From positions 15,970-79,969 of the forward strand of contig JBFMDV010000024.1 in NCBI GenBank assembly GCA_040753875.1: a DNA stretch of 64,000 nt. The letters are read 5' to 3'. Below the pieces are notes generated by a model. That model was not told the DNA's origin and made no database searches. It saw nothing but the letters and a program-made list of their open reading frames with translations. The position numbers and the translations under genes were made by a program. Of this stretch, positions 7,270-47,573 are shown one piece after another; the stretch's first letter is position 1; each line of letters begins with the position of its first letter. The stretch comes from Candidatus Zixiibacteriota bacterium. Its GTDB lineage: Bacteria > Zixibacteria > MSB-5A5 > GN15 > FEB-12.

Positions 7270-7597
7270 TGTCTCAACTTTCCCTTTTGACTACTCTGAA
7301 TAGTACAGAATACCGATCCGCGCAACAGCCGTCAAGGTTTGTTTCCCGAACGGACAGTCAGGGCGGGATTCAGTGGAAACCGTCATACGACCAACGAGTC
7401 AACGAGCGGTGTCTCTATAGACAATATGTCAGCAAGTGAACGGCCAAAAGAAAGCACTTGACAGCAGGAACGGTGTATAACATTGTAATTGGACAACAAT
7501 ATGGAGCACAGCGCTCCACGGGGTTTCAGAAGCAGTTTCACAACAGATTTCCGGGTGGTTACGGCCATCAGTCGATGTATGGGAAGGAGGAATCTGA

Positions 7598-33114: not shown

Positions 33115-33704
33115 TTCCGGCTGCCGCGCGAAATACCCTTCTTGATCTCTTTGCTGCCGATCCAGACTTTTTCGTTGGTCTCGATGTTGATGAGCTGGAG
33201 GTCCGTCTGGTAAAAGATGGCCTTGTTTTTCTCCTCCTGGTCGACAACCGACTTGACGGAGCCAGACAACAGGAAGTCGGCGCCCGTCTCTTCGCGCAGC
33301 TTTTTCATAGTCTCGCGCGATGCCGATTCCGCCTGGTCCATCCGTTCTTCACGTACCTCACCCCGTTCTTCTTTGGAGGCGACGAATTTTACTTTACCGG
33401 AGTTGAGCAGTTCGCGCTCGAAGTCCTTGGTGAACACTTCGGTGTCGATATGTTCGCTCGACAGATTGCGGATCGTCCCCACCGTCACCACCGGCTGGCG
33501 GCCGTTCTTGGCGACGAAGTCATACAGCCAAGGGCGGCCGACCGCGTCGGTGATCATTTCTTGCGCCACCATCCGCGAATCGGTGTCGTTCCAGTTGCCG
33601 CTCAGGTCTGTGACCGTTTCCGGTTCGAGACGTGTCACCTGTTTGGAGCTGCTGCAGGAAATCACCAGACAGACGACTGTTGCAAGACCCAATACCTTCT
33701 TCAT
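33108..33704 (-). CDS. lpoB: penicillin-binding protein activator LpoB-like lipoprotein (COG3417)
   Basis: Lipobox LVIS-C. The body (W.D.DSRMVAQEMI...VTVGTIRNLSSEHIDTEVFTK..ERELLNSGKVKFV...GADFLLSGSV...ETNEKVW) follows the LpoB/COG3417 pattern. ATG at 33704 has a GGAGGA SD. Confidence 0.7.
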   Translation of the reverse strand: MKKVLGLATVVCLVISCSSSKQVTRLEPETVTDLSGNWNDTDSRMVAQEMITDAVGRPWLYDFVAKNGRQPVVTVGTIRNLSSEHIDTEVFTKDFERELLNSGKVKFVASKEERGEVREERMDQAESASRETMKKLREETGADFLLSGSVKSVVDQEEKNKAIFYQTDLQLINIETNEKVWIGSKEIKKGISRGSRKW

Positions 33705-34017
33705 GTATCCTCCACACAATGGTTTGATTCTGTTCGCACCTTTCGCCCATGGCCGGTCAGGGAGTTCGGTCCATGAATTCCGAGGGTAATCATCACGAGA
33801 TTATATCGGCCGGGCTTCGGCCGTTCAACAACAATTGCAACAAGTAGAATCGAGCACCCGGGTTCAGGAAAATCGTTGACAAAATAGTCTCATTTGACTT
33901 ATTTTAAGAGTGAAATAGGCGACAATGGCCGGGTATCTAATCAACCAACGGGTGGCTATCCTGTCGCCGCGTCCGGCTTCGACTTTCTTAGCGTCATACA
34001 TCGATCGGAGGTTGTGT

Positions 34018-34893
34018 ATGGTCCGCTCTCTATGGAGACTGATTGTCGCCATGGTGGGGCTGCTGGTGCTGGGGGTTACGGCATCCGCTCAGTCCTACTT
34101 GAGTACTTGGAATACATATGGGGGTGGCACAAACGGAAGCGTCATGGCGCTCACCGTCTTTGAGGGTGATCTGATCGCAGGGGGGGCCTTCACCGTCGCC
34201 GGGGACGTGGCCTGCCGATCGGTTGCGCGGTGGAATGGCAGCAATTGGCAACCGATTGGCCTTGGACTGCACGCATCAGTTGAAGATTTTGCCGTTTATA
34301 ATGGCCAGTTGATCGCCGCCTGTGAGCCGAGCATTTACCAAGGAGAGTATGTCGACACGGTGACGTTTTTGGCACGTTGGGACGGTGCCAACTGGATCGA
34401 TCTGGGATTCGGCTCTGGTCAGGATTTCAATTGCCTATTGGTATGGGGAACAAAGCTGGTGGTTGGAGGACATTTCGACAGTGTGGCCGGCGTGCCCACA
34501 AACGGGGTGGCCATGTGGGACGGTGTCAGTTGGCAACCGCTCGGCACGGGGCTCGATGGTCGAGTGATGGCACTTGCGGATTACAATGGCGATTTGATTG
34601 CGGCGGGTTGGTTCAAAACCAACGGCAACGGAGATACTGTCAACTATGTCGCCCGATGGGATGGTGCCTCGTGGCAGCCCATGGGAGCTGGATTCGCCTG
34701 GTGGAGTGAATGCCTGGGTATCCATAACGGTCAACTAGTGGCCGGCGGGCATATTCGGCTTGGTCCAGATCATACTAACGGGACTGTCATGGTTTGGAAC
34801 GGATCCGACTGGGAGGTATTTGGTGGACTGCTGGATGAGCACGAGATTCCAGTGTCTGGAGTCATTCAACGGGGAGCTGGTCATAGGGACTAA
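34018..34893 (+). CDS. secreted beta-propeller-repeat protein (apparent N-terminal fragment of a disrupted gene)
   Basis: ATG at 34018 follows GGAGG. A signal peptide (LIVAMVGLLVLGVTASA) is followed by at least 5 repeats of the form ARW(D/N)G..W.(P/D)(L/I)G.G....V.AL..YNG.LIAGG. Confidence 0.6.
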   Translation: MVRSLWRLIVAMVGLLVLGVTASAQSYLSTWNTYGGGTNGSVMALTVFEGDLIAGGAFTVAGDVACRSVARWNGSNWQPIGLGLHASVEDFAVYNGQLIAACEPSIYQGEYVDTVTFLARWDGANWIDLGFGSGQDFNCLLVWGTKLVVGGHFDSVAGVPTNGVAMWDGVSWQPLGTGLDGRVMALADYNGDLIAAGWFKTNGNGDTVNYVARWDGASWQPMGAGFAWWSECLGIHNGQLVAGGHIRLGPDHTNGTVMVWNGSDWEVFGGLLDEHEIPVSGVIQRGAGHRD

Positions 34894-35089
34894 TTGGATC
34901 GATGGATATCGCTGGACCGGCACCGTCTGGGAGCCCTTGGGACTACACGATATCTATGCCATGACTGTCCATGACAACACATTAGTCGTCGGGGGCACTC
35001 TCAATACGACAGAGCTGCACCGGATTGCCGGCAAACCTTCGTTCGATGTTGATTCTGACGGCACTTAGGATTACTACGACAACTGCCCG

Positions 35090-35875
35090 TTGGAGCCAAA
35101 TGCTAATCAGTCAGATGCCGACGGCGACCACATGGGCGATGTCTGCGACTCTTGCTATGCCTGCGAAAAAACAGTCTACCTTCATCACGCGAACGGCCAG
35201 AAATCCGGCGACACGCTTTTTGCAGGAACGCCGGTTCGGTTTATATTTGCTTTGAGCGGGCTTGCTCAGAATACGGTCGTAGGGATAGTAAATGCACTTC
35301 GGATGTACACCCCGGACGGCGCCTCATGGTCGGCTCCCGTTATCGATTCGGTGAACGGTTGGCACAACTACTTCGATGCGGCGGCCGTCTTGCGCAGTTC
35401 GGTTCAGTCTGTGGGGAACGATAGCCTGTCGGCAGGCGGATTTGCCATCGCCTCTGGCGGTTGGCCCGCTGGACTGAACCAAGCGATCTATCACATCACA
35501 GCGGCATTCACGTCGACATCGAACGGCAAGCACGTGTGCATAGATTCGCTCATGAATTATCCACCGTACGACTTCAAAATTGGCGGGGGTAGTGTACCCC
35601 CGATTATACCATACTGGCCCGGTCCCTATTGCTTCACAATCTACGCCTGCGGCCAGGGACTGGCAGGGAATGTGGATTGCGATCCGAGCGACGTTGTCGA
35701 TATCGGCGATCTGAGTGCGATGGTGGACAGACTGTTCGTCACTCTTGAGCCGTTTTGTTGCTATCCAGAGGCGAATTGCGATAATGATGCGGCGGGTGAG
35801 GTCGACATCGGTGATGTCACCGCGCTTGTTGAGCACTTGTTTTTCGGGCAGCAGATTACTCGCAGTTGTGAATAG
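35090..35875 (+). CDS. TSP3-repeat / dockerin-like C-terminal fragment of the same disrupted gene
   Basis: The track ORF starts at TTG with no SD of its own. The sequence continues a thrombospondin type-3 Ca-binding repeat that is interrupted by TAG at 35066. It ends in the duplicated D-x-D...DIGDL..(M/L)V(D/E).LF dockerin-like module. Confidence 0.5.
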   Translation: MEPNANQSDADGDHMGDVCDSCYACEKTVYLHHANGQKSGDTLFAGTPVRFIFALSGLAQNTVVGIVNALRMYTPDGASWSAPVIDSVNGWHNYFDAAAVLRSSVQSVGNDSLSAGGFAIASGGWPAGLNQAIYHITAAFTSTSNGKHVCIDSLMNYPPYDFKIGGGSVPPIIPYWPGPYCFTIYACGQGLAGNVDCDPSDVVDIGDLSAMVDRLFVTLEPFCCYPEANCDNDAAGEVDIGDVTALVEHLFFGQQITRSCE

Positions 35876-35942: not shown

Positions 35943-37529
35943 TCAGTGCTGCGCAAATCTTGGTCTTTGTTCACTGACTGCTTGATATGTGTCTCGCACC
36001 TTCAGCCACTCCGCAAAGTAAAGCATGCTCCCAAACTGCGGTTCATCCAGAATGCGCTCGACCAGCGGTTGGCTATCCACTGAGTCTGCATCAAGCCAGG
36101 AATAATAGTGGCCGGTGGCGCGAAGCAACATGGTTCGTGACATCCCTTCGGCGAGTGCCACAGTATCGTAACGCAACTGTGCGTAGTTGCCGGGGGCTGT
36201 CGAGTAGTACAGCGTGTCATTTGATACGAGCTTCAGCATGACATCGGTGCCGGTCTCGGAAGTGGCTGATGCCAGCCTCGCCGGCGTTACCATAATCGAT
36301 TCGTCCGGACCAAAATCGATACCGACATGATCCAGCCGCCAGAGATCGGCGCAGCTTTCGAGCTTGACTCTGACCGTGGCACCCGCAACATCGGCCAGGT
36401 TCAAGACCGCGAGGTTTGTGACTGTCGAACGGGGTCCGATCGGGGGAAGAACACCCTGAGTAACCCATCGGCCATCCATCCAGACCGACACCTGCAGGCC
36501 ACCCTCGCGCAGGAGCCAATTGACCAACCGTCGGCGCTCCAACGAGTCGGTATTCAGTTCATGATACCAGTCCAGCTTGCCCGGGCCACGGAGTGAGAAC
36601 AGCTTTTCCAGAGCGAAATATCCGAGGTTCGTCGCGCGAGCAGTGACTACCAGTTTGGCGGCTGTTGCCGTTTCGGGCTTCTCAAACTCACAAATGAGGC
36701 CATCACGTAAGCGCGTTATCGAGGAGTCGATATCCATTTGTCTCGTTTCCCAGAATCGGCCGTCTTGTGCCCTTATCTCATGCGCGGCCGGGCTGCCGTC
36801 GAGTCCAACCGCCATCGTCGGTCCATGAACATCCTGCACGGTGTGAAGTATGTTTCGAATATCGGGTATGATGCGTGTCCCATATGGATGGTCCGCAGCC
36901 AGCAATGCCAGTTCGTTCACATGCTGTGATTCGGGAGACTGGTTGGCCAGCGCCAGGCGATAGGCGCCGTCAACGATCGTCAGGTGCGCCAACGGCTCAA
37001 CCACCGTTCGCTCCAGACCGCGGCAGACCGAACCGGCAAAGGTCTCGGACTCGAATTGATACGACTTTCCATCATATGAGAACACATACGGACAGGAACC
37101 GCCTCCCCCACCCGAAACCGGATACGAGATTTCCACACCCACGACGCCAAAGCTGCCCGATCCGAGGGACTGGGCAGCACTGGCCGTTAGAAAACCAATG
37201 CAACCCCAGGCCAGCAGGTTGACCGCCGGGTCGATCTTGTTCGTTTGCACGATAGAGACGTCCGAAATCGGTATTGAGCCGGAGAAGAATTTCCCGGCGC
37301 TGTCGTGTGGAAATCTGAGCCCATAGCCTGTTATCCTCTTGGCCGTTACCGTACCCCGATCGAGCCGATAGGTTGTTCCGTCTTTCATCAGCAGTTCCAT
37401 TTTACCCGAATCGGTCTGCCTCAGGCGGGACGCAGGTACCGCCTGCAGGGTATGGATGCAACCGGACACCAGTCCTGCCACAATCAGGGCTGCCAACGTC
37501 GCACTAGCGATACACATCTTTGCTCTCAT
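35943..37529 (-). CDS. uncharacterised lipoprotein, paralog A (shares a ~400-aa domain with 39555..41528)
   Basis: Lipobox LVSG-C, followed by an N-terminal small beta domain, a hydrophobic/Gly-rich linker and a conserved body starting SCPYVFSYDGKSY. The ATG forms an ATGA overlap with the ketoacyl-synthase stop. Confidence 0.75.
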   Translation of the reverse strand: MRAKMCIASATLAALIVAGLVSGCIHTLQAVPASRLRQTDSGKMELLMKDGTTYRLDRGTVTAKRITGYGLRFPHDSAGKFFSGSIPISDVSIVQTNKIDPAVNLLAWGCIGFLTASAAQSLGSGSFGVVGVEISYPVSGGGGGSCPYVFSYDGKSYQFESETFAGSVCRGLERTVVEPLAHLTIVDGAYRLALANQSPESQHVNELALLAADHPYGTRIIPDIRNILHTVQDVHGPTMAVGLDGSPAAHEIRAQDGRFWETRQMDIDSSITRLRDGLICEFEKPETATAAKLVVTARATNLGYFALEKLFSLRGPGKLDWYHELNTDSLERRRLVNWLLREGGLQVSVWMDGRWVTQGVLPPIGPRSTVTNLAVLNLADVAGATVRVKLESCADLWRLDHVGIDFGPDESIMVTPARLASATSETGTDVMLKLVSNDTLYYSTAPGNYAQLRYDTVALAEGMSRTMLLRATGHYYSWLDADSVDSQPLVERILDEPQFGSMLYFAEWLKVRDTYQAVSEQRPRFAQH

Positions 37530-38791
37530 ACATACTCCTTCCCGGAGGAACCGTTATCGATCTTGCAAAAGACGAGGCAGGCATTCCGCCCGCCAAAACT
37601 GCAGTTGGCGGACACTGCCGCCTGAATGTCTGTCTTATGGCTTTTGTCCCCCGCGCAATTGATGTCGCATTGGGGGTCACGTGGAGTGCTATTGATCGAT
37701 GGCGGGATCACTTGTCGATCTACCGCCAGTGCGATCACCGCAGCCTCCAGTGCGCCGCACGCTCCCAGGAGATGTCCGGTCACCGGCTTGGTTGAGCCGC
37801 AGGCCGGCTGATTCTCCGTTGGTCCGAAAATCGCCCGCACTGCATTGCACTCGGCAGGATCATTGGCAGAAGTTGCCGTCCCATGCAGATTGACATAGCC
37901 GATTTCTCCTGGGGCGAGTTCTGCATCATCGAGCGCTTTCCGAATGGCTACAGCCAGCATCACGCCCTCGGGGTCAGGCGAAGTCGGATGGAACGCATCG
38001 CAGGTTTCAGCAAACCCTGCAGCCCGGCAGTACATCTTCGCCCTTCGCAGGATTGCGTGCTGACGTTCCTCAAGTACAAGATACACCGCTCCTTCACCCA
38101 GTACGAAACCGTCGCGATCGGCGGCAAATGGCCGGCACGCCGCGTGCGGGGAACCATTGAACTTTGACAGCACACCCGCGTGAACGAAGGGGCGAACAAT
38201 ATCAAGGTGTAACGGCGCCTCGGTCCCCCCGACGATCGCAACGTCGAGGTCACCGCGTTCAATGCCGCGAAGTCCATGACCGACGGCGCAGGCTGATGAC
38301 ACGCTGCCGTGCGATAGGGTCACCGCCGGACCTTTGAAGCCAAACTGCATGGCGATGGCGCCGGATGAGTTGCCCGACATGCCGCATACCAATATAGATG
38401 GGCCGTGCGCACAGTTGTCCCCTGCCAACGACTTTCTCAGTTGCTCGATGACCAGCGCCGTCGAACCAAGGGAGGAACCGTCGAAAACACCGCATCGTTC
38501 GGGGGACGCCGGTGAGGTGTTCAATCCGGCATCGGCCAGCGCCATTGTCGCCGCTCCCAGCGCGAATTGCGCCGAACGGTCGAGCCGCCGGGCCATTTTG
38601 CGTGGAACGAACCGCTCAGGATCGAATCCCACCACCTGAGCACCGATCCGCACAGCCAATCCACTCGCTTCGGCTTCCGGCCAAGGCTGAACTGCCGAAA
38701 CACCTCCGACAACATGACGCCAGAGTGCGTCGGCTCCCAGGCCGCAGGCCGTGACGGCGCCTATCCCGCTTATGATCACCTGTCGCTGCAT
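37526..38791 (-). CDS. beta-ketoacyl-ACP synthase I/II family enzyme (FabF/FabB-like), orphan
   Basis: 421 aa with the complete Cys-His-His triad context: SVSSACAVGHG, NLHGTATSANDPAE and TKPVTGHLLGACGALE. No ACP, reductase or dehydratase gene is present in the window. Confidence 0.85.
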   Translation of the reverse strand: MQRQVIISGIGAVTACGLGADALWRHVVGGVSAVQPWPEAEASGLAVRIGAQVVGFDPERFVPRKMARRLDRSAQFALGAATMALADAGLNTSPASPERCGVFDGSSLGSTALVIEQLRKSLAGDNCAHGPSILVCGMSGNSSGAIAMQFGFKGPAVTLSHGSVSSACAVGHGLRGIERGDLDVAIVGGTEAPLHLDIVRPFVHAGVLSKFNGSPHAACRPFAADRDGFVLGEGAVYLVLEERQHAILRRAKMYCRAAGFAETCDAFHPTSPDPEGVMLAVAIRKALDDAELAPGEIGYVNLHGTATSANDPAECNAVRAIFGPTENQPACGSTKPVTGHLLGACGALEAAVIALAVDRQVIPPSINSTPRDPQCDINCAGDKSHKTDIQAAVSANCSFGGRNACLVFCKIDNGSSGKEYV

Positions 38792-38802
38792 AGCCCAATC
38801 TC

Positions 38803-39549
38803 TCAGAATGCGACCACCAAACCGGCCGAAAGCCAGAACGCATCCATCGAAGCCTTGGCCGTGATGTTGTTTCCTTGCGGCAGATATCCCAACCCCTCTC
38901 TTTTCATTTCTCCCCCGATCACGTATTTTGCCGAGACGTACAGCGATTGTCTGGTTCGCTCCGGATCGCGGAACTCGATTAGTGCGACCAGTGGATAGCC
39001 AACCTCCGGACCGGTGTCAACCTCCACCCACTGCATGGTGCCGCCATCGTTTGTAGGTGAGCTATAGGTGCGATAGGCGCGCACCCGCTGGTAGGCAATG
39101 CCGGGGCCGAACGACATGCAGATGGATCTTTGCCTGAGTAGCGTAACAAGCATGCTCATGCTGAAATGCTGACGTCTCGCGTGCCCTGATGACGGCTTGC
39201 CGCCGATCACACCTTCAAACCATGCCGAGAACCGGCGACTGACATGGAGTCGCAGACCGGCGATTGCAGTCACGCTTCGGCCGGCAAGATCGCCACTCTG
39301 CGGAACGCCATAGTAATCTTCGACCGAGTGGAAAGTCTCTTTCAACTCATTATAGCTCGCCCACTCCCACACCGCTCCCATGTTCACGCTGAGGTGTGGG
39401 TAGGAAGGAACATATCGCCGTGTTTCAGCTTGCACAATGCTGTCGGGAGTTTGGAGAACCGGTCGAGTAGTGTCATCGAAAATCTGACCCCGAGCCGATT
39501 CGCCCAGCAGCACCACCCAGACAAGACTGAAAATTATTAGTGTTCGCAT
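38803..39549 (-). CDS. putative outer-membrane beta-barrel protein
   Basis: Signal peptide (LIIFSLVWVVLLGESARG), alternating-hydrophobicity strands and a C-terminal aromatic residue (...LSAGLVVAF), typical of OM beta-barrels. No named family recognised. Confidence 0.55.
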   Translation of the reverse strand: MRTLIIFSLVWVVLLGESARGQIFDDTTRPVLQTPDSIVQAETRRYVPSYPHLSVNMGAVWEWASYNELKETFHSVEDYYGVPQSGDLAGRSVTAIAGLRLHVSRRFSAWFEGVIGGKPSSGHARRQHFSMSMLVTLLRQRSICMSFGPGIAYQRVRAYRTYSSPTNDGGTMQWVEVDTGPEVGYPLVALIEFRDPERTRQSLYVSAKYVIGGEMKREGLGYLPQGNNITAKASMDAFWLSAGLVVAF

Positions 39550-39554
39550 GTGAC

Positions 39555-41528
39555 CTACCTCGTCTCCGCAGTGTCGACGACTTCCAAGGATGTCAACACG
39601 TACTGGTTGAGTAGTTGGAGACTGTACCTGCCAAACGCCCCAGGTTCATCCAGTAACTGCGCGATCAGTTTGTCCTGTGGCTCCCCCTCGCCGCATACAT
39701 GAATCGTGTAATAACCGCTGCACTTGACGACATACGACCGGGTGAGCCGCTCGACACGCGGCGGCACTTCGAACTCCACATCCGCCCAGTCGAGCGTGCT
39801 TGGCATTGCGTAATAATTCTGATCGAGGTTGGCCAGTCTGCGTCTTTGATCTTCGCTTCGATAGTCCAGCGCGCGGGCGGCCGCCAATTCCGTCACACGC
39901 ACCGGCGAAGACCAGCCATATTCAACAGCCGCCCGATTGATCATCCAGAATCCGGCAGTCGATTCGAGTCGGACCCTGAGAAGCGAATCGGACGAGTGCG
40001 GCAGCCGGAGTACGACAGCCACATCGCGTGGAACCGCCGGGCCGATCTCCCATATTGTGCCGGCATGGCGCCAGGTGCCTTGATCCCACACTTTCACCAG
40101 CAGCATCCCCTCTCGAATCATTGCCTGCATAAGTCTCGACCTATCCGGTTCCGAGTTGTTCAATGAACGATACCAACTCTCAAGCGAGTCCCCCTGCAAC
40201 GAGAGGATATGCCCAAGCATCTCAGCCGACCAGGCCGAGTTTTGACCGTTGAGAATCAGCGTGGCCGAGTCTACTCCCGGCGGCAACGAGAACTCCAGAA
40301 CCAGACCGTCGCGGACCTGGTTAATATCGGCGGGATCTCGACCGAACGGGTTACTCACCCATGTACGGTCGTCTGTTTCCCGCAACATCTCCGACAGATT
40401 CGCTCCTCGATCATCATAGGCTTGGATTGGCGCAACAGGTGCAGCAGTCACCCGCAACGTGCCGTCAAAGGTCGGTACAACATGTGTGCCGGGTGAATGG
40501 TCGACTGCCAGTAACTTGAGTTCATCGACATACTGCGTCTCCTCCAGTTCGTTGGTAATGCGTATGCGGCAGACACCGTCGACATCACGCAGGGAGTCAA
40601 GGGTCACCCAGTCAGTCCGCTGAGCCGCCCGGAAGATCGCCCCGCCAAACACCTCGGCCTGGCGGTGATATTTCTGACCGTCGAAACTATAAATGAACGG
40701 ACAGGACCAGGTACCGTTACTACTGCTTGAGGTCAGGCTCATGTCCATGCCTCCGGAAGCGGCGAAGGCGATAACGGCTGCAATGACTGCCGCATCAATA
40801 ATAGCTCCGATAATGAGGCCCGTGGTCTTGCCGTGCACTCGATTTTTCACCCAGACCTGCTCGATCTGATCCACCGGAATCACCAGTTGTATCGAATCAT
40901 TCAGGATCACAAGCGACGACAAAAGCGGCACGTGATGGTTCTGCACTGCCGACGTTATGTCAGCCCCTGACAGCACGAAATCGTCTTTGACTACAACCGC
41001 GTCGATGTTCCGACTGTCAATCCTCTGGATGGCGCCACTCTCATTATTCTGCACGGTCAAGAGGCAAGTCAGTGTCCCGTCGGTCGTCATTGACTCCAAC
41101 GTATCACGTTTCTGGTACGGGTCCACCGGGCGGTACCGCCTGTCATAGCCGATAAGCGTACACCGCATGGAATCGCCATTGTGAGTGGCTATTGATAATG
41201 TGTCCCCTGGTCGGGGGAGCCTTGCGGCAGAGGGGTCAGTGTCATGTTCGCGTGCAAATCGGTCGGCGTAGGCCGCCGCGTCCGCCTCCGAGACGGTGAC
41301 GAACCTTCCTGAATCCTGTGACCCGTCCGTTCGAAAGATGGTCACCTTTTCGTTCCGTTTGAGAGTCTGCCACTCCCATCCCGGCACCGGCTTCTTCTTT
41401 GGCTTGCCTGAATCCGCAATTGCCCCAAGCCCAAGCCCGATGAGGGTGCAGCCAAGAGTAGGCAGCAGTATTGCTCCCGTCGCCAGGAGTATCAACGCAA
41501 GTCTTGATCGATGTGCCATCTGAATCAC
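39555..41528 (-). CDS. uncharacterised lipoprotein/membrane protein, paralog B
   Basis: Lipobox-like LPTLG-C and a mid-protein TM (GLIIGAIIDAAVIAAVIAFAA). The body starts SCPFIYSFDGQKY and is collinear with paralog A (ELKLLAVDHSPGTHVVP, RDGLVLEF, REGMLLVKVWDQGTW, LRVRLESTAGFW, LLDEPGAFG). Confidence 0.75.
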   Translation of the reverse strand: MIQMAHRSRLALILLATGAILLPTLGCTLIGLGLGAIADSGKPKKKPVPGWEWQTLKRNEKVTIFRTDGSQDSGRFVTVSEADAAAYADRFAREHDTDPSAARLPRPGDTLSIATHNGDSMRCTLIGYDRRYRPVDPYQKRDTLESMTTDGTLTCLLTVQNNESGAIQRIDSRNIDAVVVKDDFVLSGADITSAVQNHHVPLLSSLVILNDSIQLVIPVDQIEQVWVKNRVHGKTTGLIIGAIIDAAVIAAVIAFAASGGMDMSLTSSSSNGTWSCPFIYSFDGQKYHRQAEVFGGAIFRAAQRTDWVTLDSLRDVDGVCRIRITNELEETQYVDELKLLAVDHSPGTHVVPTFDGTLRVTAAPVAPIQAYDDRGANLSEMLRETDDRTWVSNPFGRDPADINQVRDGLVLEFSLPPGVDSATLILNGQNSAWSAEMLGHILSLQGDSLESWYRSLNNSEPDRSRLMQAMIREGMLLVKVWDQGTWRHAGTIWEIGPAVPRDVAVVLRLPHSSDSLLRVRLESTAGFWMINRAAVEYGWSSPVRVTELAAARALDYRSEDQRRRLANLDQNYYAMPSTLDWADVEFEVPPRVERLTRSYVVKCSGYYTIHVCGEGEPQDKLIAQLLDEPGAFGRYSLQLLNQYVLTSLEVVDTAETR

Positions 41529-41561
41529 TTCCTTCTATTCGCAGGCTATGCCTACCGAACG

Positions 41562-41609
41562 GACGCGCGCCGATCGGAGGGCTCCATGCCCTCCGAAGGC
41601 GCGTGCGTC
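41562..41609 (-). other. GC-rich composite stem-loop in the 95-nt intercistronic gap
   Basis: The inner stem is GGAGGGC-(5 nt)-GCCCTCC and the outer stem is GACGCGCGCC / GGCGCG(TG)CGTC. Neither orientation has a U-tract. Confidence 0.4.
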
Positions 41610-41622
41610 GGCCCCCTCTGCA

Positions 41623-42927
41623 TCAAATTGCCCCCGGCGTACAGTGGATATCGAGTGTAAATACATTGTGAGCGCTTGTACTCACACGCAGTGTCGATCT
41701 CAGCACCCCGTGATTCGGCGCATCGACCGGTAACATCTTCTGCAGGCGATAGCTCGAAACCGCCACATAGTTGGTCATGAATAGCGACTCGTGTCGCTCG
41801 TACACTCTTGCCGGATACGTCTCGCCGACCGGCGTGGGCGGATCGGTCAGCGGATTCACCGGTGTCAGATTGAGCGACCCTTGAGCGATGAAACCGGCCA
41901 CATACTTGCCGTCACTGGTGAGGCGTACCACTTGCCGCATATGGACCGGTCCATTCGCGTAGAGATAATCGAGCGGTCCGGATGAGCAAAATGGCTTCGG
42001 TATTACCTGGTCGAAATTGATGACGAAATCCTGCACCCAGATACCGGGCGTCCAAGTCACACTTCCCCCAAGGTTGAGAATCATGGCGACCCCATCAGTA
42101 CCGATCGGCACCGGCGCGGAGACATTTCCCAGAGGACCGCCTATGAGAGCGCGCAATTCCACCGGTAAGCCGTTGTATATGATATCCGGGATCTCCCGAA
42201 ACGGAGCCGGATTGATCTGACCTGTCGGCATCATAGGAATGTCCGGATCGAGCAGACCGCTCCTCATGAGATCCACGATGACGAACTGCTCGGCCACTTC
42301 CCACGAAATCACCTGATGATTAGTCGTGCCAGGCACCTGAATTTCGAAATGCACATTGGCCAGAGTCCAATCCCCCTGGCGGAACAGGCGAAGATGGAAC
42401 CTCGCCGGCCCGTACGAACCACACGCCAGTTGGATGGCGCTGCCGGTCCAGCCTTCAGTTTCTCCATATGCGGTTTGCATGTCTCCGGTGACATCATCGA
42501 GCCATCTGCTATTGAATGGTGAGGCATCCGGAAAGCCGATCGCCGTCCTGTCGCCGTCGAGCGATAGTAAAGCCGCACGAATGTCTCTCGGATCGGCGTG
42601 TCCGACAAAGATGAGATTGATCGGATCCTGGCCCTGGCTGGAAAAGTCGTTCCCCGTAAACGGCCAGAATGTTAGCGCATTGTCGCCGAATGCAACTGTT
42701 GTAAGTGGTCCCGGCGGTGGGGTCGGCGTGGGGCACACGGCTGTCTTCGCAGTCAACCCGGCTGCGATTGCATCAACATCCAGATTCTGCGGCTCCGACT
42801 CTTCGACCGCCTCGATCGGTGCGGCCTGGTAGTTGCTCCCCTGAATTGTTTCCTGTGTTCGCTGGCATCCGAGAGCGAATAACGTGGCGACGACTGCCAA
42901 CAGGCCGAGTAGTGTAAGTCTCCTCAT
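41623..42927 (-). CDS. uncharacterised lipoprotein (first gene behind the sigma-54 promoter)
   Basis: ATG at 42927 is preceded by GGAGAA. Lipobox LFALG-C, 434 aa, no family recognised with confidence. The track start at 43017 is probably over-extended. Confidence 0.7.
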   Translation of the reverse strand: MRRLTLLGLLAVVATLFALGCQRTQETIQGSNYQAAPIEAVEESEPQNLDVDAIAAGLTAKTAVCPTPTPPPGPLTTVAFGDNALTFWPFTGNDFSSQGQDPINLIFVGHADPRDIRAALLSLDGDRTAIGFPDASPFNSRWLDDVTGDMQTAYGETEGWTGSAIQLACGSYGPARFHLRLFRQGDWTLANVHFEIQVPGTTNHQVISWEVAEQFVIVDLMRSGLLDPDIPMMPTGQINPAPFREIPDIIYNGLPVELRALIGGPLGNVSAPVPIGTDGVAMILNLGGSVTWTPGIWVQDFVINFDQVIPKPFCSSGPLDYLYANGPVHMRQVVRLTSDGKYVAGFIAQGSLNLTPVNPLTDPPTPVGETYPARVYERHESLFMTNYVAVSSYRLQKMLPVDAPNHGVLRSTLRVSTSAHNVFTLDIHCTPGAI

Positions 42928-43006
42928 CTGATTCTCCTTCCCCGACCATCGTGGTCGGAAATTGTCTTGGCTGATCATTTGCCCTGTGTGAGCTGCCCGC
43001 CTGTTA

Positions 43007-43021
43007 TGCAACCCCAATGCC
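43007..43021 (-). promoter_or_regulatory. sigma-54 (-24/-12) promoter candidate
   Basis: The minus strand reads cGGCAT-TGGGG-TTGCAt, against the consensus TGGCAC-N5-TTGCW. The GG and GC dinucleotides have canonical spacing. It lies about 80 nt upstream of the ATG at 42927 and is divergent from a sigma-54 activator gene. Confidence 0.55.
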
Positions 43022-43149
43022 GACTGAACGTGGATACTTCAGGACGTGATTATCTCAATGGGACACAATATGTTACGCGGTCGACGGGCCTTCCGGCGAC
43101 CGGTCCAGTTCTGGATAGCATTTAATCCGGTTGACCGGAGGGTGGTTAG

Positions 43150-44766
43150 TTGCTATCTTGTTATGGGCATTTCATGAAAGCAGAAGAGAATCAGATTCCC
43201 GAACATTCGGATGTCGAACGTCTGCGCAGAGCGTTGGGTGAGTTACGACTCATCAATAGTCTGATCGCGCGTATCAGTCAGGTGCGCGAGGTCAACCATA
43301 TCATGGATTTGATCCTGGGGGAGCTGGTGCGCGCCACGCAAGCGGACCAGGGACTCATCAATCTGGTGACCCCGATGGCCGAGGGGGATGCATTGACGAC
43401 GGTTGTTCGAACATCAAAATCGAAGGCTGAGACTACCCCGTTCAAAGCAAACGAACTGATTTGCGGCTGGGTGCTCACCAATCGCGTGTTGTTGAAGATC
43501 GATGATCTCGATCATGACGAGCGGTTTTCCGGTATGTCATCGTCGAACGGTCTGTTCAAGTCGGTCATTTGTTGTCCGATGCTGGTACGCAACGAAATCA
43601 TTGGCCTGACCAGTCTCGTCCGAAGTGCCGGCAAGGGTCCGTTCACCGATGAGCACTGCCGACTCGTAGGCATACTAACCTCGCAGTCGGCTCAATTGCT
43701 CAGCAACGCGCGTTTGCTGGAAGAACTGGCCGCCAAGAACGAACTCCTCGAATTGTCGCGGCAGAAACTCCACGATGAGTATGCCCGGCTGCAGTCCGAA
43801 GTCTCCGCCACGTTCGCTTTTGAGCAGATAGTCGGCAAATCGGCTCCGATGAAACGAGTCCTGGCGCTGGCGTCTAAGTTCAGCTGCACTGACTCGGCCG
43901 TTCTTATCGTGGGCGCCACCGGTACCGGCAAAGAACTGCTGGCCCGGGCCATCCATTACAATTCGCCCCGGAAGGATCGCCCGTTCATCATAAAGAATTG
44001 CGGCATCAAGACAGAATCCCTGTTGGAATCGGAGCTGTTCGGACATGTGAGAGGCGCCTTCACCGGCGCCGACCGCGAAAAACGGGGCCTTTTTAAGGAA
44101 GCCGATGGCGGCACGATATTTCTCGATGAGATCGGCGATGCTCCGCTCTCCACCCAGGCTGCGATCCTTCGGGTCATACAGAGCGGCGAGATCAGACCGT
44201 TGGGATCGACGAAGACCGAGTATGTGGATGTGCGGGTGCTGTCGGCGACGAACAAAAACCTGAAGGACGAGATTGCCAGGGGGAATTTCCGCGACGACCT
44301 CTACTATCGCCTCAATACGTTCACGCTGGAGTTGCCGTCTCTGGCGGAGCGCACCGAAGATATTCCGCTCCTTATCAATCACTTTCTTAAGCGGCTTCGG
44401 ATCAAGCTCGGCGTGGCGGAGCTGCACATCTCACCGGGCGCGCTTGAACGCTTCTTGAGATACGACTGGCCGGGCAACGTGCGTCAATTGGAACATGAAC
44501 TGGAGCGGGCGGCCGTGGTGTGCGGCTCGGACGGGGTGATCGAAGTGACCGACCTCTCCCCGGTTCTCGCGGCCCCGGCCTTTTCCGGCGAACAGTCGAA
44601 CTCTTATCGAGGAGAGCTCCGCCTGGTTGTCGAGCGAGTTGAGCGAGAGATGATAGCCCAGACGCTTAAGGAGCACGAGGGGAATATCATGCAAACGGCG
44701 GAGGCGCTGGGTCTGACGAGAAAGGGCCTGAAAGACAAAATGGACCGCTACGGCATCAAGCGCTAA
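43150..44766 (+). CDS. sigma-54-dependent transcriptional activator (GAF - AAA+ - Fis HTH)
   Basis: The AAA+ domain has Walker A GATGTGKELLA, ESELFGH and the GAFTGA loop. An N-terminal GAF-like sensor and a C-terminal HTH (GNIMQTAEALGLTRKGLKDKM) flank it. The TTG start at 43150 has GGAGG 8 nt upstream; an alternative ATG lies at 43174. Confidence 0.9.
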   Translation: MLSCYGHFMKAEENQIPEHSDVERLRRALGELRLINSLIARISQVREVNHIMDLILGELVRATQADQGLINLVTPMAEGDALTTVVRTSKSKAETTPFKANELICGWVLTNRVLLKIDDLDHDERFSGMSSSNGLFKSVICCPMLVRNEIIGLTSLVRSAGKGPFTDEHCRLVGILTSQSAQLLSNARLLEELAAKNELLELSRQKLHDEYARLQSEVSATFAFEQIVGKSAPMKRVLALASKFSCTDSAVLIVGATGTGKELLARAIHYNSPRKDRPFIIKNCGIKTESLLESELFGHVRGAFTGADREKRGLFKEADGGTIFLDEIGDAPLSTQAAILRVIQSGEIRPLGSTKTEYVDVRVLSATNKNLKDEIARGNFRDDLYYRLNTFTLELPSLAERTEDIPLLINHFLKRLRIKLGVAELHISPGALERFLRYDWPGNVRQLEHELERAAVVCGSDGVIEVTDLSPVLAAPAFSGEQSNSYRGELRLVVERVEREMIAQTLKEHEGNIMQTAEALGLTRKGLKDKMDRYGIKR

Positions 44767-44769
44767 AGC

Positions 44770-47367
44770 TCAGGCCGCACCCGCCAACAGCTTGCGGAAC
44801 GCCGGATGATCGTGGAGCGGCTTCCAAAGCGGGTCCGCTTTCAGGTACGGCACTGACACGAAACCGGGCACACTCAACAGGGCTCCAAGCTGCTCGACGG
44901 CGGCATCGTACTCGTCGAAGATCATCAGCGTTTCGGCAAGATTGACCATTAGAAACAGTGCGTCATACGCATCCCGTGACGTCGGCAGCAGTTCGACCCC
45001 TTTTCGCGCGTAAGCAATTGCTTCGCTCTTTCGTCGCATGCCCGCATAGGCCAGACCCAACTGGCTGTTGAAGCGCGCATCCTCCGGCAACGCCCGGACC
45101 TTTGTCTCCAGAATGCACCGCGCCGAATCGGCATAGGCGTATTCCTGCTGTCCCCGTCCAAGCAAGCGGTACATCTGGGCGCGATGCAGATAGAATCCAG
45201 CGGTATCGGTTCCCAGGCGTGTCTGCGACAGCACCTTGCTGAAATCACTCTCCAGTATCCGCATGAGCCACCAATAGTACGGTGATCTTGCCAGATCCAC
45301 TTGCGCTGGGACTTGCGCGAGTACCCTTCTGGATTCGCCCGCGTCGCCGTCACGAAGCACCGCCATCCAAGCTCTGACCACGTGCGGAAGCGGCCAGTCC
45401 GGGGCCAGCGCGATGGTACGATCCAGAAATCGATTTGCCTCTCGAAACTCGCGCATCATGGCAAAGGTCAGTGCCACATCAAACGCTTTCAGATAAGATC
45501 GCGGGTCGTACTCCAGTGCTTTCATGAAATTCTGTGCGGCAGCGTCGAGTTTCCCCTGTCTCCGTTGCACCGCCCCAACTGCATTAAGCAGTTCCGCATG
45601 AGTCGGTTGAAGTGTCAGCGCCCGGTCGAACTCCCTCAAGGCATTCTCATAATCGAGCTCACAGTGGTAGTAGTAATAGCCGAGCGCAAGGTGTCCTTCG
45701 AGCAGATCCGGCTGGAGCGTCAGTGCCCGGTCGACTGCCTGCCGCGCTCTCCGGCGGGTGGCGTCCGAGCGGTCATAGTATTCCCAGTACATGCTCTCCT
45801 CCGCCCGGCAGAGCATGGCATAAGCAGAAGCGAAGCCGGAATCGAGTGCGACTGCCTGTCGATACATGCGTAGCGCGATTTGAATGTCGTCCTTGTCCCA
45901 GCTTCGATTGAAATACTGATTACCTCTCAAGTAGAAGTCATAGGCCTGCAGGTTGGGGGTCAATCCGCCCCCCTGCTGTTCCGCGGGTGAACCAACTGCC
46001 ACATTGAGCGCCGCCGCGACACGCTGCGCGATCTCCGCCTGCAGCTCAAATATGTGCTCAAGCGGTCGTTCATAACTGTCGGCCCACAAGTATGTGTCAT
46101 CGGCTACTTTCACCAGCGCCGCGCTGATCCGCACGCGACTCGGTGTAACAGTCCTTTCCCAATTCACCGCACCGGTGATGGCGTAATCGACGCCCAGTTC
46201 CGACCCGATCTCAGCGACCCGAAGTTTGCTCCCCTTGTACTGCATGGAACTGGCTCGTGAGACTACTCCCATTCGCCCCGCCTTGGCCAATTGCATAGTC
46301 ACTGCGTCAGTCATGCCGTCGGCGAAGTACTCATCGCCGGGCAGGCCGAGGTTGTCGAACGGCAGCACCGCCAGCATTGGCGCCCCGGCTCCTTTCGCGC
46401 TCACATGCGGCTTGTAGACGTGCCAGCCTGTGATCGCTACAACAAGTGCGAGAACGGCAATCCCACTAGACACCAGAAGACGCCGGTGCCGAGTTGACGA
46501 TTCGATGTGTGACGCTTGCGCATGGCCTGACACCGATATTGCCTGTAACTGAGCCAGAAGGTCGTCAGCACTTTGAAGCCGTTTGGAAGGGTCTTTCTCA
46601 AGCAGACGCATAACGAGCTGTTCGAGAGCTGGTGGAATATCCGGACGGAGTTTCTGGAGCGGCTCCGGCTCCTGGTGGACGATAGCGTACAGCACAGCCG
46701 CCTCATACTCCCCGCGAAACGGCAGCACTCCGGTCAGCATTTCATACATCACCACGCCAAGCGCGAACAGGTCGGAGGCCGGCGTGACCTCCTGTGCTTT
46801 CGCCTGCTCGGGCGACATGTACGCCATGGTCCCGACCGTGGCGCTCGTCCGCGTGACATCAGAACCGCTGCAAAGCTGCGCCAGACCGAAATCGAGGATC
46901 TTCGCCGTGCCGTCCTTTGTCAGCAGGATATTGTGCGGTTTGATGTCGCGGTGGACGGTACCGACAGCATGCGCTCGGCCCAGACCGCGTGCTATCTGTT
47001 TGGTCATCTGAATTACCTCAGGGATTGCCAACCGCCCGGTAGCCATCCGATCCTTGAGTGATTCGCCATCTACATATTCCATGGCGATAAACGATCGTCC
47101 CTGAAACTCCCCCACCTCATAAATAGTGATGATATTGGGATGATTCAGGGCTGCTGCCGCCTGTGCTTCCCGTTTGAGTTTGGCGTGACAGTCGGGGTCA
47201 GAAGTCAACTGAGGGGACAGGAACTTGAGCGCCACTCGCCGCTGCAAGCTGGCATCTTCGGCCAGCCAAACTTCACCCATCCCACCGGCGCCAAGTTTTC
47301 GACGCACCGAATAATGGCTGAATGAAAGACCAGCGCGAAGGCCGGTTATTGGCTGGTCCGAATCCAT
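44770..47367 (-). CDS. Ser/Thr protein kinase with TM segment, periplasmic domain and C-terminal TPR repeats
   Basis: Hanks kinase motifs are present: GAGGMGEVW, VALK, HRDIKPHN, DFG and SPE. A TM segment (VSSGIAVLALVVAITGW) is followed by a long TPR-like C-terminal region. Confidence 0.9.
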   Translation of the reverse strand: MDSDQPITGLRAGLSFSHYSVRRKLGAGGMGEVWLAEDASLQRRVALKFLSPQLTSDPDCHAKLKREAQAAAALNHPNIITIYEVGEFQGRSFIAMEYVDGESLKDRMATGRLAIPEVIQMTKQIARGLGRAHAVGTVHRDIKPHNILLTKDGTAKILDFGLAQLCSGSDVTRTSATVGTMAYMSPEQAKAQEVTPASDLFALGVVMYEMLTGVLPFRGEYEAAVLYAIVHQEPEPLQKLRPDIPPALEQLVMRLLEKDPSKRLQSADDLLAQLQAISVSGHAQASHIESSTRHRRLLVSSGIAVLALVVAITGWHVYKPHVSAKGAGAPMLAVLPFDNLGLPGDEYFADGMTDAVTMQLAKAGRMGVVSRASSMQYKGSKLRVAEIGSELGVDYAITGAVNWERTVTPSRVRISAALVKVADDTYLWADSYERPLEHIFELQAEIAQRVAAALNVAVGSPAEQQGGGLTPNLQAYDFYLRGNQYFNRSWDKDDIQIALRMYRQAVALDSGFASAYAMLCRAEESMYWEYYDRSDATRRRARQAVDRALTLQPDLLEGHLALGYYYYHCELDYENALREFDRALTLQPTHAELLNAVGAVQRRQGKLDAAAQNFMKALEYDPRSYLKAFDVALTFAMMREFREANRFLDRTIALAPDWPLPHVVRAWMAVLRDGDAGESRRVLAQVPAQVDLARSPYYWWLMRILESDFSKVLSQTRLGTDTAGFYLHRAQMYRLLGRGQQEYAYADSARCILETKVRALPEDARFNSQLGLAYAGMRRKSEAIAYARKGVELLPTSRDAYDALFLMVNLAETLMIFDEYDAAVEQLGALLSVPGFVSVPYLKADPLWKPLHDHPAFRKLLAGAA

Positions 47368-47573
47368 TGTCTTATCCCGTTACCACGAGAGCATCTTACA
47401 TGGTCGGCTGTACTAACTACGATGCGGGTGCCCGTTGATGGATTCAAGATAGGCTACGTTGCTGCCGTTCGGCAACAACAATGTGGTGCCACCCAACAGT
47501 TCCAAATGGCCGGAACCACCGGCGGCTTCACCTTGGTGTTGACATCGCTCCCTGTGGGAAGCACTTTAGCACG

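What the first reader, a model, noticed from the sequence alone, without database searches (positions are those of the whole stretch)
35943..44766. Sigma-54-controlled envelope operon built around an orphan ketoacyl synthase
Five tightly packed minus-strand genes run in the order lipoprotein 41623-42927, paralog B 39555-41528, OM beta-barrel 38803-39549, KAS 37526-38791 and paralog A 35943-37529. The gaps are 5 and 11 nt, one junction is an ATGA overlap, and one 95-nt gap contains a stem-loop. The genes sit behind a -24/-12 promoter-like element and are divergent from a GAF-AAA+-HTH sigma-54 activator. The KAS keeps a complete Cys-His-His triad, so it looks catalytically competent. It has no ACP, reductase, dehydratase or acyltransferase neighbour. 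Instead it is embedded among three lipoproteins and an OM barrel that I cannot assign to any family. A cytoplasmic condensing enzyme co-transcribed with exported proteins suggests a dedicated, signal-induced surface-lipid or lipoprotein-modification module. I do not recognise it as a described pathway.
Basis: partly seen in the sequence, partly recalled or inferred. Interest (0 to 1): 0.72.

Follow-up and report, generated by a model that had tools for sequence, protein, structure and literature searches.

The report
Serine-type ketosynthase paired with membrane proteins
A Zixibacteria-like bacterium places a fatty-acid-synthase-like enzyme, whose key cysteine is replaced by serine, under a sigma-54 switch together with four exported or membrane proteins of unannotated families; the enzyme-plus-membrane-protein pair recurs in many uncultured bacteria and matches no pathway I could find described.

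Summary
The five minus-strand genes, their tight junctions, the intercistronic hairpin, the -24/-12 box and the divergent GAF-AAA+-HTH activator are all real. One key claim is wrong. The KAS does not keep Cys-His-His. The acyl-accepting Cys is Ser, here and in its 29 nearest homologue clusters, while His-His-Lys-Phe are kept. It scores below the fabF cut-offs, so it is not housekeeping FabF.

Related loci show the operon is a lineage-specific fusion of two sigma-54 units:
- a widely conserved 434-aa lipoprotein, always beside the activator and a TPR Ser/Thr kinase;
- a module of barrel-like protein, KS-like enzyme and paralog.

The KS-like gene lies next to a paralog in 12 distinct loci and is absent from 3.

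The paralogs belong to a large unannotated family (4,939 representative clusters) with an invariant Ser-Cys-Pro motif after a hydrophobic helix. In most other members the adjacent gene is a radical SAM enzyme rather than a KS.

Best reading (inferred): a sigma-54-induced envelope module in which a non-elongating KS-like enzyme serves the membrane protein. Function is unproven. Four of the five proteins have no family or structural match.

The parts
43007..43022 (-). sigma-54 type -24/-12 promoter element CGGCATTGGGGTTGCA, 79 nt upstream of the lipoprotein ATG
   Evidence: Equivalent boxes lie upstream of the lipoprotein gene in L001, L002, L004, L005 and L006, and upstream of the separate barrel/KS/paralog units in L001, L002, L004 and L008.
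41623..42927 (-). 434-aa lipoprotein (lipobox Cys21). Conserved family with more than 900 homologues and no Pfam domain. Confident model with no structural match.
   Evidence: pLDDT 89.7, pTM 0.85; no Foldseek PDB hit at E<=1e-3.
41529..41622 (-). intercistronic GC-rich hairpin without a U tract (possible attenuator or mRNA 3' stabiliser)
   Evidence: conserved in position in L005; no Rfam family; not scored as an intrinsic terminator.
39555..41528 (-). paralog B (657 aa; probable start ATG 41519). Lipobox Cys27, about 210-aa N-terminal region, hydrophobic helix with Asp, then the Ser-Cys-Pro domain.
38803..39549 (-). 248-aa exported protein that ends in ...VVAF. Outer-membrane beta-barrel is plausible but unverified.
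   Evidence: Homologues precede KS or paralog A in L001, L002, L012, L013, L014 and L016.
37526..38791 (-). FabF-derived KS-like enzyme (421 aa) with a Ser-His-Lys-His-Phe active site and no signal peptide
35943..37529 (-). paralog A (528 aa). Lipobox Cys24, small beta domain (26-99), helix 101-119, Gly-rich linker, invariant S145-C146-P147, two jelly-roll sandwiches with a helical insert.
   Evidence: (pLDDT 79.7, pTM 0.75).
43150..44766 (+). GAF - sigma-54 AAA+ (GAFTGA at 302, Walker A at 255) - HTH_8 enhancer-binding protein, divergent from the operon
   Evidence: Syntenic in L001, L002, L004, L005 and L006.
44770..47367 (-). 865-aa Ser/Thr protein kinase with TPR repeats, tail-to-tail with the activator. 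Part of the conserved lipoprotein-activator-kinase triad.

Best explanation
This is a sigma-54/enhancer-binding-protein-controlled envelope gene set of a Zixibacteria-like bacterium. It is not a fatty-acid elongation pathway.

Shown:
- Two ancestral sigma-54 units are fused here. Unit 1 is the 434-aa lipoprotein that always sits divergently from the GAF-AAA+-HTH activator and its neighbouring TPR Ser/Thr kinase. Unit 2 is a module of 'SCP-domain' membrane proteins (A and B), a small exported beta-rich protein and a FabF-derived enzyme.
- That enzyme carries Ser in place of the acyl-accepting Cys and keeps His-His-Lys-Phe.
- It is genetically coupled to an SCP-domain gene across many loci, often by overlapping or near-abutting stop and start codons.

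Inferred:
- The enzyme is cytoplasmic and draws malonyl- or acyl-ACP from the housekeeping pool.
- It acts as a non-elongating decarboxylase or acyl-transferase, forming an acyl-O-Ser intermediate or none, rather than as a chain-extending synthase.
- It works as the dedicated partner enzyme of the SCP-domain protein. It fills the slot that radical SAM/SPASM enzymes fill for most other family members.
- The invariant Cys at the membrane-proximal start of the domain is the most likely acceptor or active residue.
- The barrel-like protein and the lipoprotein provide the periplasmic and outer-membrane part of the same induced response.
For: - Active site: Ser at the FabF Cys163 position in the window and in P0136-P0164, with His303, Lys335, His340 and Phe400 kept.
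- Not fabF: below the NCBIfam fabF cut-offs and 35% identical to E. coli FabF.
- Orphan: no ACP, KR, DH or AT in the window or in L001-L010.
- KS next to an SCP gene: window, L002/L014, L004, L005, L008, L009, L010, L016, L017, L020 and L099. All five Ser-KS homologues of the nearest clade whose contexts I looked up were adjacent to one.
- Different regulators around the same pair: sigma-54 EBP + kinase in Zixibacteria, HisKA + OmpR-type response regulator in L009 and L010. This points to the pair as the functional unit.
- SCP family: 4,939 representative clusters. Invariant residues are S145, C146, P147, E200, D438, G473 and Y475.
- Neighbours of SCP genes in 80 metagenome loci: radical SAM/SPASM immediately downstream in 28 of 66, and a radical SAM whose best match is Tes in 10 of 66.
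- Fusion: one member is fused to an FGE-sulfatase domain.
- Regulation: sigma-54 boxes are conserved upstream of both units, and the activator has GAFTGA.
- Precedent: stand-alone condensation-inactive KS enzymes that decarboxylate malonyl-ACP are established in HMGS cassettes (PMC10006238). That these carry Cys-to-Ser is my own recollection (PksF/CurC).
Against: - No biochemical or transcript data exist for any of these genes.
- Topology of the SCP domain is unresolved. Lipoprotein signal plus one helix puts it in the cytoplasm. However, K+R is depleted after the helix (0.77 against 2.3 per 15 aa). Rare members are fused, without a helix, to PKD, Big-like and beta-helix domains that are normally extracytoplasmic. 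If the domain is periplasmic, a cytoplasmic KS could act on it only before export.
- The KS is absent from L001, L012 and L013, so the paralog can function without it.
- Two members of the same KS clade keep Cys (L016, P0165/L099). L069, L079 and L085 carry a full DH-KS(Cys)-ACP-KR set beside the SCP gene. Both observations fit real chain building in at least some lineages.
- A Ser nucleophile does not by itself exclude condensation.
Confidence: 0.33

Rival explanations
1. The KS is an active condensing enzyme. Using housekeeping ACP and reductases, it builds a special acyl chain or surface lipid, which the lipoproteins and the barrel then handle or export.
For: - His-His-Lys-Phe and the overall FabF architecture are intact.
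- Cys-bearing members exist in the same clade and in the same gene order.
- L069, L079 and L085 place FabA-like DH, KS, ACP and SDR next to an SCP gene.
- A homologue of the lipoprotein lies among PAP2, Phosphodiest and DedA lipid-related genes in L007.
Against: - The acyl-accepting Cys is Ser in the window and in its 29 nearest clusters.
- There is no ACP, KR, DH or AT in 64 kb, nor in the relatives L001-L010 that were searched.
- The KS is dispensable in L001, L012 and L013.
- None of the exported proteins resembles a known lipid transporter.
Confidence: 0.2
2. Signal-lipid model. The KS-like enzyme makes or edits a small lipid-like signal that feeds back on the neighbouring sensors (GAF activator, TPR kinase). 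A and B would be receptors or presenters rather than substrates.
For: - The pair is always embedded next to signal-transduction genes: EBP + kinase, or HisKA + response regulator.
- A second Ser-type KS clade is co-transcribed with an ICMT/PEMT methyltransferase, a 7TM histidine kinase and a GAF response regulator.
- GAF domains bind small ligands (general knowledge).
Against: - No ligand or product is known.
- Regulators next to their target operons are common and need no feedback loop.
- The lipoprotein-activator-kinase triad exists without any KS (L001, L006).
Confidence: 0.1
3. Pseudoenzyme model. The KS-like protein is catalytically dead and serves only as a cytoplasmic scaffold or chaperone for the SCP-domain proteins.
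For: Loss of the Cys nucleophile, tight coupling to the partner gene, and a frameshifted copy in L004/L015.
Against: - Ser, both His, Lys and Phe are strictly conserved over sequences only 43-75% identical. This is not expected for a dead active site.
- The L004 frameshifts also affect a neighbouring gene on that contig, so they may be assembly errors.
Confidence: 0.08
4. The KS is simply the genome's housekeeping fabF, and its neighbours are unrelated genes.
For: The best family hit is TIGR03150 fabF, and the best PDB hits are KAS II enzymes.
Against: - The score is 374.8 against a trusted cut-off of 493.75.
- The nucleophile is Ser.
- No acpP, fabG or fabD lies nearby.
- The gene is absent from the syntenic locus in the complete genome behind L001.
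- The linkage to SCP genes is conserved.
Confidence: 0.02

Closest known systems
FabF / KAS II (beta-ketoacyl-ACP synthase II, TIGR03150)
   Same: Full-length two-domain thiolase fold (PF00109 + PF02801). E 1.2e-85 to Thermus FabF 1j3n. His303, Lys335, His340 and Phe400 are conserved.
   Different: Cys163 is replaced by Ser. The score is below the equivalog cut-off. There are no fab or acp neighbours. The gene sits in a sigma-54 envelope operon next to a membrane protein.
Stand-alone condensation-inactive KS of HMG-synthase beta-branching cassettes (PksF, CurC, MupG type) and KSQ/KSS loading domains
   Same: FabF-like proteins that have lost the Cys nucleophile but keep the His pair. They decarboxylate malonyl-ACP to acetyl-ACP (PMC10006238; PMC11350588). 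The Cys-to-Ser detail for PksF/CurC and for polyene KSS domains is from memory.
   Different: No HMGS, ECH, donor ACP or PKS lies anywhere near. The partner here is a membrane-anchored jelly-roll protein. No NCBIfam model of that type was hit.
Maturase-substrate pairs such as anSME (radical SAM/SPASM) or FGE with sulfatases
   Same: In the wider SCP family, a Cys followed by Pro at the accessible start of the domain is invariant. The adjacent gene is most often a radical SAM/SPASM enzyme, and one member is fused to an FGE-sulfatase domain.
   Different: The motif is S-C-P-x-[VI]-[YF], not C-x-P-x-R. The fold is a double jelly roll, not the sulfatase fold. The radical SAM neighbours are not anSME by NCBIfam. 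In this window the partner is a KS-like enzyme, so the analogy is only architectural.
Sigma-54 regulons driven by GAF-domain enhancer-binding proteins (NifA/NorR type)
   Same: GAF + AAA+ with GAFTGA + HTH_8. The activator is divergent from a GG-N10-GC promoter.
   Different: It scores below every NCBIfam equivalog cut-off: NifA 346 against 529, NorR 344 against 476. It is always paired with a TPR Ser/Thr kinase. The target genes are envelope proteins of unannotated families.

Membership tests
FabF / KAS II (housekeeping) | Score at or above the curated equivalog cut-off (TIGR03150, 493.75 bits) | tested here: not met
   374.8 bits. Also below the cut-offs of NF005589 and all other KAS models.
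FabF / KAS II (housekeeping) | Cys-His-His catalytic triad (Cys163, His303, His340) | tested here: not met
   Ser-His-His. Lys335 and Phe400 are kept.
FabF / KAS II (housekeeping) | Genomic association with acpP, fabG, fabD or fabH | tested here: not met
   tblastn with E. coli ACP, FabG, FabD, FabZ and FabH found nothing in the window or in L001-L010.
Decarboxylating, condensation-inactive stand-alone KS (HMGS-cassette type) | Nucleophilic Cys lost while the His pair is retained | tested here: met
   SHKHF pattern in the window and in 51 other aligned sequences.
Decarboxylating, condensation-inactive stand-alone KS (HMGS-cassette type) | Encoded with HMG-ACP synthase, ECH1/ECH2 and a donor ACP | tested here: not met
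   None of these is in the window or in related loci.
Decarboxylating, condensation-inactive stand-alone KS (HMGS-cassette type) | Malonyl-ACP decarboxylase activity without condensation | not testable with these tools
   Needs an enzyme assay.
Sigma-54-dependent operon | -24 GG / -12 GC element at the correct spacing upstream of the first gene | tested here: met
   CGGCATTGGGGTTGCA at 43007-43022. Conserved in 10 of 10 orthologous upstream regions against a background of 0.10 per kb.
Sigma-54-dependent operon | Cognate enhancer-binding protein with a GAFTGA loop and a DNA-binding domain | tested here: met
   Sigma54_activat 5.9e-65, GAFTGA at 302, HTH_8.
Sigma-54-dependent operon | rpoN in the genome, and RpoN- and EBP-dependent transcription as one unit | not testable with these tools
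   There is no rpoN in the window. rpoN is present in the related contig L008. No transcript data are available.
Bacterial lipoproteins (lipoprotein, A, B) | Signal peptide ending in a lipobox with an invariant Cys | tested here: met
   C21, C24 and C27 are invariant or near-invariant in alignments A2, A1 and A4. No dedicated predictor was available.
Outer-membrane beta-barrel (248-aa protein) | Match to an OMP barrel family, or a barrel fold | tested here: inconclusive
   No Pfam hit for any of 7 homologues. hhalign against the PF13505 protein of L020 gave probability 0.2. A signal peptide and a C-terminal ...VVAF are present.
Formylglycine (sulfatase-type) maturation system | C/S-x-P-x-R target motif and an anSME or FGE maturase | tested here: not met
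   The motif is S-C-P-x-[VI]-[YF]. Neighbouring radical SAM enzymes score far below all named families. The window has no radical SAM gene beside A or B.

The most novel reading that the evidence does not exclude
The SCP-domain proteins (A, B and about 5,000 representative clusters) form a widespread, undescribed class of membrane-anchored proteins. Their invariant Cys, at the start of a double jelly-roll domain, would be matured or acylated by a dedicated partner enzyme. Different lineages recruit different chemistries for that job: radical SAM/SPASM, a radical SAM whose best match is Tes, a fused FGE domain or, as here, a Ser/Cys-type FabF derivative. On this reading the window shows a new protein-modification or cofactor-forming system under sigma-54 control.
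Probability: 0.2. Interest if true: 0.85.

Novelty: categorically new. Interest (0 to 1): 0.62.

Why it matters
If the pairing is functional, it gives a first handle on a very large protein family with no Pfam, NCBIfam or PDB counterpart. It also shows a new use of the FabF scaffold outside lipid and polyketide assembly lines.

It identifies a conserved sigma-54, GAF-activator and Ser/Thr-kinase envelope regulon in Zixibacteria, an uncultured phylum whose cell-envelope biology is essentially unknown.

The recurring choice between a KS-like enzyme and radical SAM enzymes beside the same invariant Ser-Cys-Pro motif is a concrete hypothesis. It can be tested with a handful of heterologous expression and mass-spectrometry experiments.

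Tried and rejected
- Family searches on the four non-KS proteins found nothing usable. Pfam and NCBIfam gave no hits at E<=0.1. PADLOC gave only a 13-bit noise hit.
- PDB sequence searches with family profiles gave nothing for the lipoprotein and only noise for the paralogs.
- Foldseek against PDB gave only generic jelly rolls for paralog A (TM <=0.19) and nothing at E<=1e-3 for the lipoprotein.
- Rfam found nothing for the hairpin region, and it was not scored as an intrinsic terminator.
- The search for conserved inverted repeats as activator binding sites in five orthologous intergenic regions found nothing shared.
- Barrel test: hhalign against an OMP_b-brl neighbour of a related locus and Pfam on all 7 homologues were both negative.
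- Topology tests were ambiguous or inconclusive: charge bias around the helix and co-occurrence of Cys169 and Cys280 as a disulfide proxy.
- Housekeeping fabF was rejected.
- A link to the SAO organometallic system, suggested by a SaoD/DsrE-like neighbour in distant loci, was read up and dropped as unrelated.
- A literature search for Zixibacteria + sigma-54 found no papers.
- The first metagenome scan, with a very diverse alignment, failed for lack of a conserved stretch. It was repeated with a narrower alignment.


Full report
**Observation.**
All five minus-strand ORFs exist at the stated coordinates. The junctions are as described:
- B/barrel: TAG + 5 nt + ATG.
- Barrel/KAS: TGA + 11 nt + ATG.
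- KAS/A: ATGA overlap preceded by GGAAGGAG.

The 94-nt gap after the lipoprotein gene folds into a GC-rich hairpin (-50.4 kcal/mol, z = -3.55). A hairpin of different sequence sits at the same place in the closest relative, L005. It has no U tract and no Rfam match.

A and B are paralogs: 30% identity over 361 residues, E 1e-54. The divergent gene is a GAF, sigma-54 AAA+ and HTH_8 activator with GAFTGA and Walker A motifs. CGGCAT-N5-TTGCA lies 79 nt upstream of the lipoprotein ATG at 42927.

**The ketosynthase.**
Pfam finds both KS domains. NCBIfam's best model is fabF, but at 374.8 bits against a cut-off of 493.75, and every other KAS model is also below its cut-off.

In the HMMER alignment to Thermus FabF (1j3n), and in MAFFT alignments with E. 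coli FabF, the acyl-accepting Cys163 aligns with Ser in the motif SHGSVSS. The only nearby Cys lies five residues downstream and is not conserved.

In a 136-sequence alignment, the pattern at Cys163/His303/Lys335/His340/Phe400 is S-H-K-H-F for the window and for all 29 nearest homologue clusters (P0136-P0164, 43-75% identity). Canonical C-H-K-H-F starts at P0165. The substitution is ancient and fixed, in an otherwise intact active site.

E. coli ACP, FabG, FabD, FabZ and FabH find nothing in the 64-kb window or in the flanks of the relatives L001-L010.

**Gene neighbourhoods.**
Homologues point to Zixibacteria. The closest locus is L005, from assembly GCA_000315315.2. Across relatives:
- The lipoprotein, the activator and a TPR Ser/Thr kinase form an invariant triad (window, L001, L002, L004, L005, L006).
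- In L002, L004 and L014 the other genes form a separate unit on the far side of the kinase, in the order 203 aa, 330 aa (similar to the N-terminus of B), barrel-like, KS, A.
- In L005 the order is lipoprotein, B, KS.
- In L008 it is 291 aa, B, KS.
- In L009, L010, L016, L017 and L099 it is KS then A. L016 and L099 also carry a barrel-like gene before the KS.
- L009 and L010 carry a histidine kinase and an OmpR-type regulator upstream instead of the sigma-54 activator.
- L001, L012 and L013 have barrel-like plus A and no KS.

So the five-gene order is not conserved. The window is a fusion of two units. The conserved feature is the KS-like gene lying directly next to an A/B-type gene, seen in 12 distinct loci.

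Ten of those KS genes have Ser. L016 and P0165/L099 have Cys.

**Sigma-54 control.**
A single box in the window is not significant: 3 matches against 1.6 expected. With the criterion of at least 9 of 11 consensus positions and fixed GG and GC, each of ten oriented upstream regions carries one box. These regions precede the lipoprotein gene in six loci and the separate barrel/KS/paralog unit in L001, L002, L004 and L008. They total 4.06 kb. The background in the same loci is 0.10 per kb per strand.

rpoN is present on the related contig L008 and absent from the window. Transcription as one unit was not tested. No second box lies in the 94-nt gap, so B to A would depend on read-through of the hairpin.

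**The paralogs.**
An AlphaFold2 model of A (pLDDT 79.7, pTM 0.75) shows, in order:
- a signal peptide with lipobox;
- a small beta domain (26-99);
- a helix (101-119);
- a disordered Gly-rich linker;
- two jelly-roll sandwiches with a helical insert.

Foldseek finds only generic jelly rolls, with TM <= 0.19.

An exhaustive profile search finds 4,939 representative clusters at E <= 1e-3 and 1,474 at E <= 1e-30. None of those checked has a Pfam domain apart from fused modules. Across a broad alignment the invariant residues are S145, C146, P147, E200, D438, G473 and Y475.

Of 138 representatives with the motif, 122 have a strongly hydrophobic helix within 50 residues before Ser-Cys-Pro, and a hydrophobic N-terminal segment carrying a lipobox-type Cys is common among them.

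Topology is unresolved:
- Simple parity puts the large domain in the cytoplasm.
- K+R is depleted after the helix (0.77 against 2.3 per 15 residues).
- Rare members carry the domain directly after PKD, Big-like or beta-helix modules with no helix in between.
- A disulfide proxy was uninformative.

**Partners of the wider family.**
In 80 metagenome loci recovered with the SCP motif, the genes around the SCP gene are as follows:
- Immediately downstream on the same strand: a radical SAM/SPASM enzyme in 28 of 66 cases where a neighbour is visible, frequently with overlapping stop and start codons.
- Immediately downstream in 10 of 66: a radical SAM whose best but sub-threshold NCBIfam hit is the tetraether lipid synthase Tes.
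- Upstream: often a 400-aa exported beta-rich protein (15 cases) or a 185-aa lipoprotein (8 cases).

L069, L079 and L085 carry FabA-like DH, canonical Cys-KS, ACP and an SDR beside the SCP gene. L020 has B, KS(Ser) and a PF13505 barrel. One member, P0388, is a lipoprotein with PKD, FGE-sulfatase, PKD and then the SCP domain.

**The lipoprotein and the barrel-like protein.**
The lipoprotein family has more than 900 homologues at about 50% identity, all unnamed. It has invariant His, Arg and Trp residues and two invariant Cys besides the lipobox Cys. The model is confident (pLDDT 89.7, pTM 0.85). It has no PDB sequence hit and no Foldseek PDB match at E <= 1e-3.

The 248-aa protein has homologues only in the related loci. 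It has no Pfam hit and no profile similarity to an OMP_b-brl protein. 'Outer-membrane barrel' rests on its signal peptide and its C-terminal ...VVAF.

**Interpretation.**
Shown:
- a conserved sigma-54-type regulon;
- a non-housekeeping, Ser-type FabF derivative;
- conserved coupling of that enzyme to a member of a very large unannotated membrane-protein family.

Inferred: the KS-like enzyme is a non-elongating partner of the SCP-domain protein, acting as a decarboxylase or acyl-transferase on housekeeping malonyl- or acyl-ACP. It would occupy the slot taken by radical SAM enzymes elsewhere, with the invariant Cys as the likely acceptor or active residue.

The precedent for condensation-inactive stand-alone KS enzymes comes from HMGS cassettes (PMC10006238) and KSQ domains (PMC11350588). 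That PksF/CurC-type enzymes carry Cys-to-Ser is from my own memory.

**Novelty.**
Four of the five proteins belong to families without Pfam, NCBIfam or PDB counterparts. The conserved KS-like/SCP pair corresponds to no system I could find described in the libraries and literature I could search. I rate it categorically new as a system. The KS-like enzyme on its own is a new variant of a known kind. Function remains hypothetical.

Noticed in passing
L018-L097 (for example L036:7692-10495, L049:1869-5424, L051:7079-10020): In the wider SCP-domain family, the gene right after the SCP gene is a radical SAM/SPASM enzyme (28 of 66) or a radical SAM whose best match is Tes (10 of 66), often with overlapping stop and start codons. 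PaaK-like, AmmeMemoRadiSam-like and SaoD/DsrE-like genes recur nearby.
   Followed up: partly
protein P0388 (869 aa), P0336, P0321: Rare SCP-domain proteins lack the preceding helix. They are fused to FGE-sulfatase + PKD, to beta-helix, or to Big-like repeats. This implies an extracytoplasmic location there and hints that the invariant Cys is a modification target.
   Followed up: partly
L098:1969-7983 and L100:5435-11458: A second Ser-type KS clade (P0176, P0214) sits in overlapping-gene operons: ICMT/PEMT methyltransferase, KS(Ser), HisKA_7TM histidine kinase, response regulator with GAF. There is no SCP gene.
   Followed up: no
L069:10583-13449, L079:4262-7175, L085:2223-5271: A complete mini elongation set (FabA-like dehydratase, canonical Cys KS, ACP, SDR/FabG) lies directly beside an SCP-domain gene. 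In L079 it lies behind a 958-aa sigma-54 activator homologue.
   Followed up: partly
window 41529-41622 and L005:11303-11400: A strong GC-rich hairpin immediately after the lipoprotein stop codon is conserved in position but not in sequence. It has no U tract and no Rfam family. It may be an attenuator or a 3' stabiliser separating the lipoprotein from B, barrel, KS and A.
   Followed up: partly
window 41519-41528: B more likely starts at ATG 41519 (GGAAG 8 nt upstream) than at the GTG 41528 used by the ORF list.
   Followed up: no
window 39555-41528 (N-terminus of B) and B-type homologues: In B-type proteins the lipobox Cys is followed by a conserved [ST]LIGLGIGA glycine-zipper-like stretch. 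The helix before Ser-Cys-Pro carries a conserved Asp.
   Followed up: no
window 31696-33719 and 33925-35875: LpoB (PF13036) plus an overlapping 472-aa ORF follow the KS directly in relative L005. In the window, paralog A and two plus-strand genes lie in between: a 322-aa protein with Rax2/DUF5122-type propeller repeats and a 261-aa protein with a dockerin-like tail.
   Followed up: partly
L007:145-4447; L002:1-1738; L004:1-1546: In a Gemmatimonadetes MAG, the lipoprotein homologue lies between PAP2, Phosphodiest and DedA/VTT genes. In L002 and L004 it is followed by a B12-binding radical SAM gene.
   Followed up: no
L004/L015 (contig_45802) 6700-9986: The KS and the 330-aa gene are split by frameshifts on this contig. 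This is either assembly error or gene decay.
   Followed up: no
window 47481-48353 and L005:4583-5374: A 290-aa protein with a weak GNAT signal is conserved next to the kinase in the window and in L005 (58% identity). It is not part of the regulon in other relatives.
   Followed up: no
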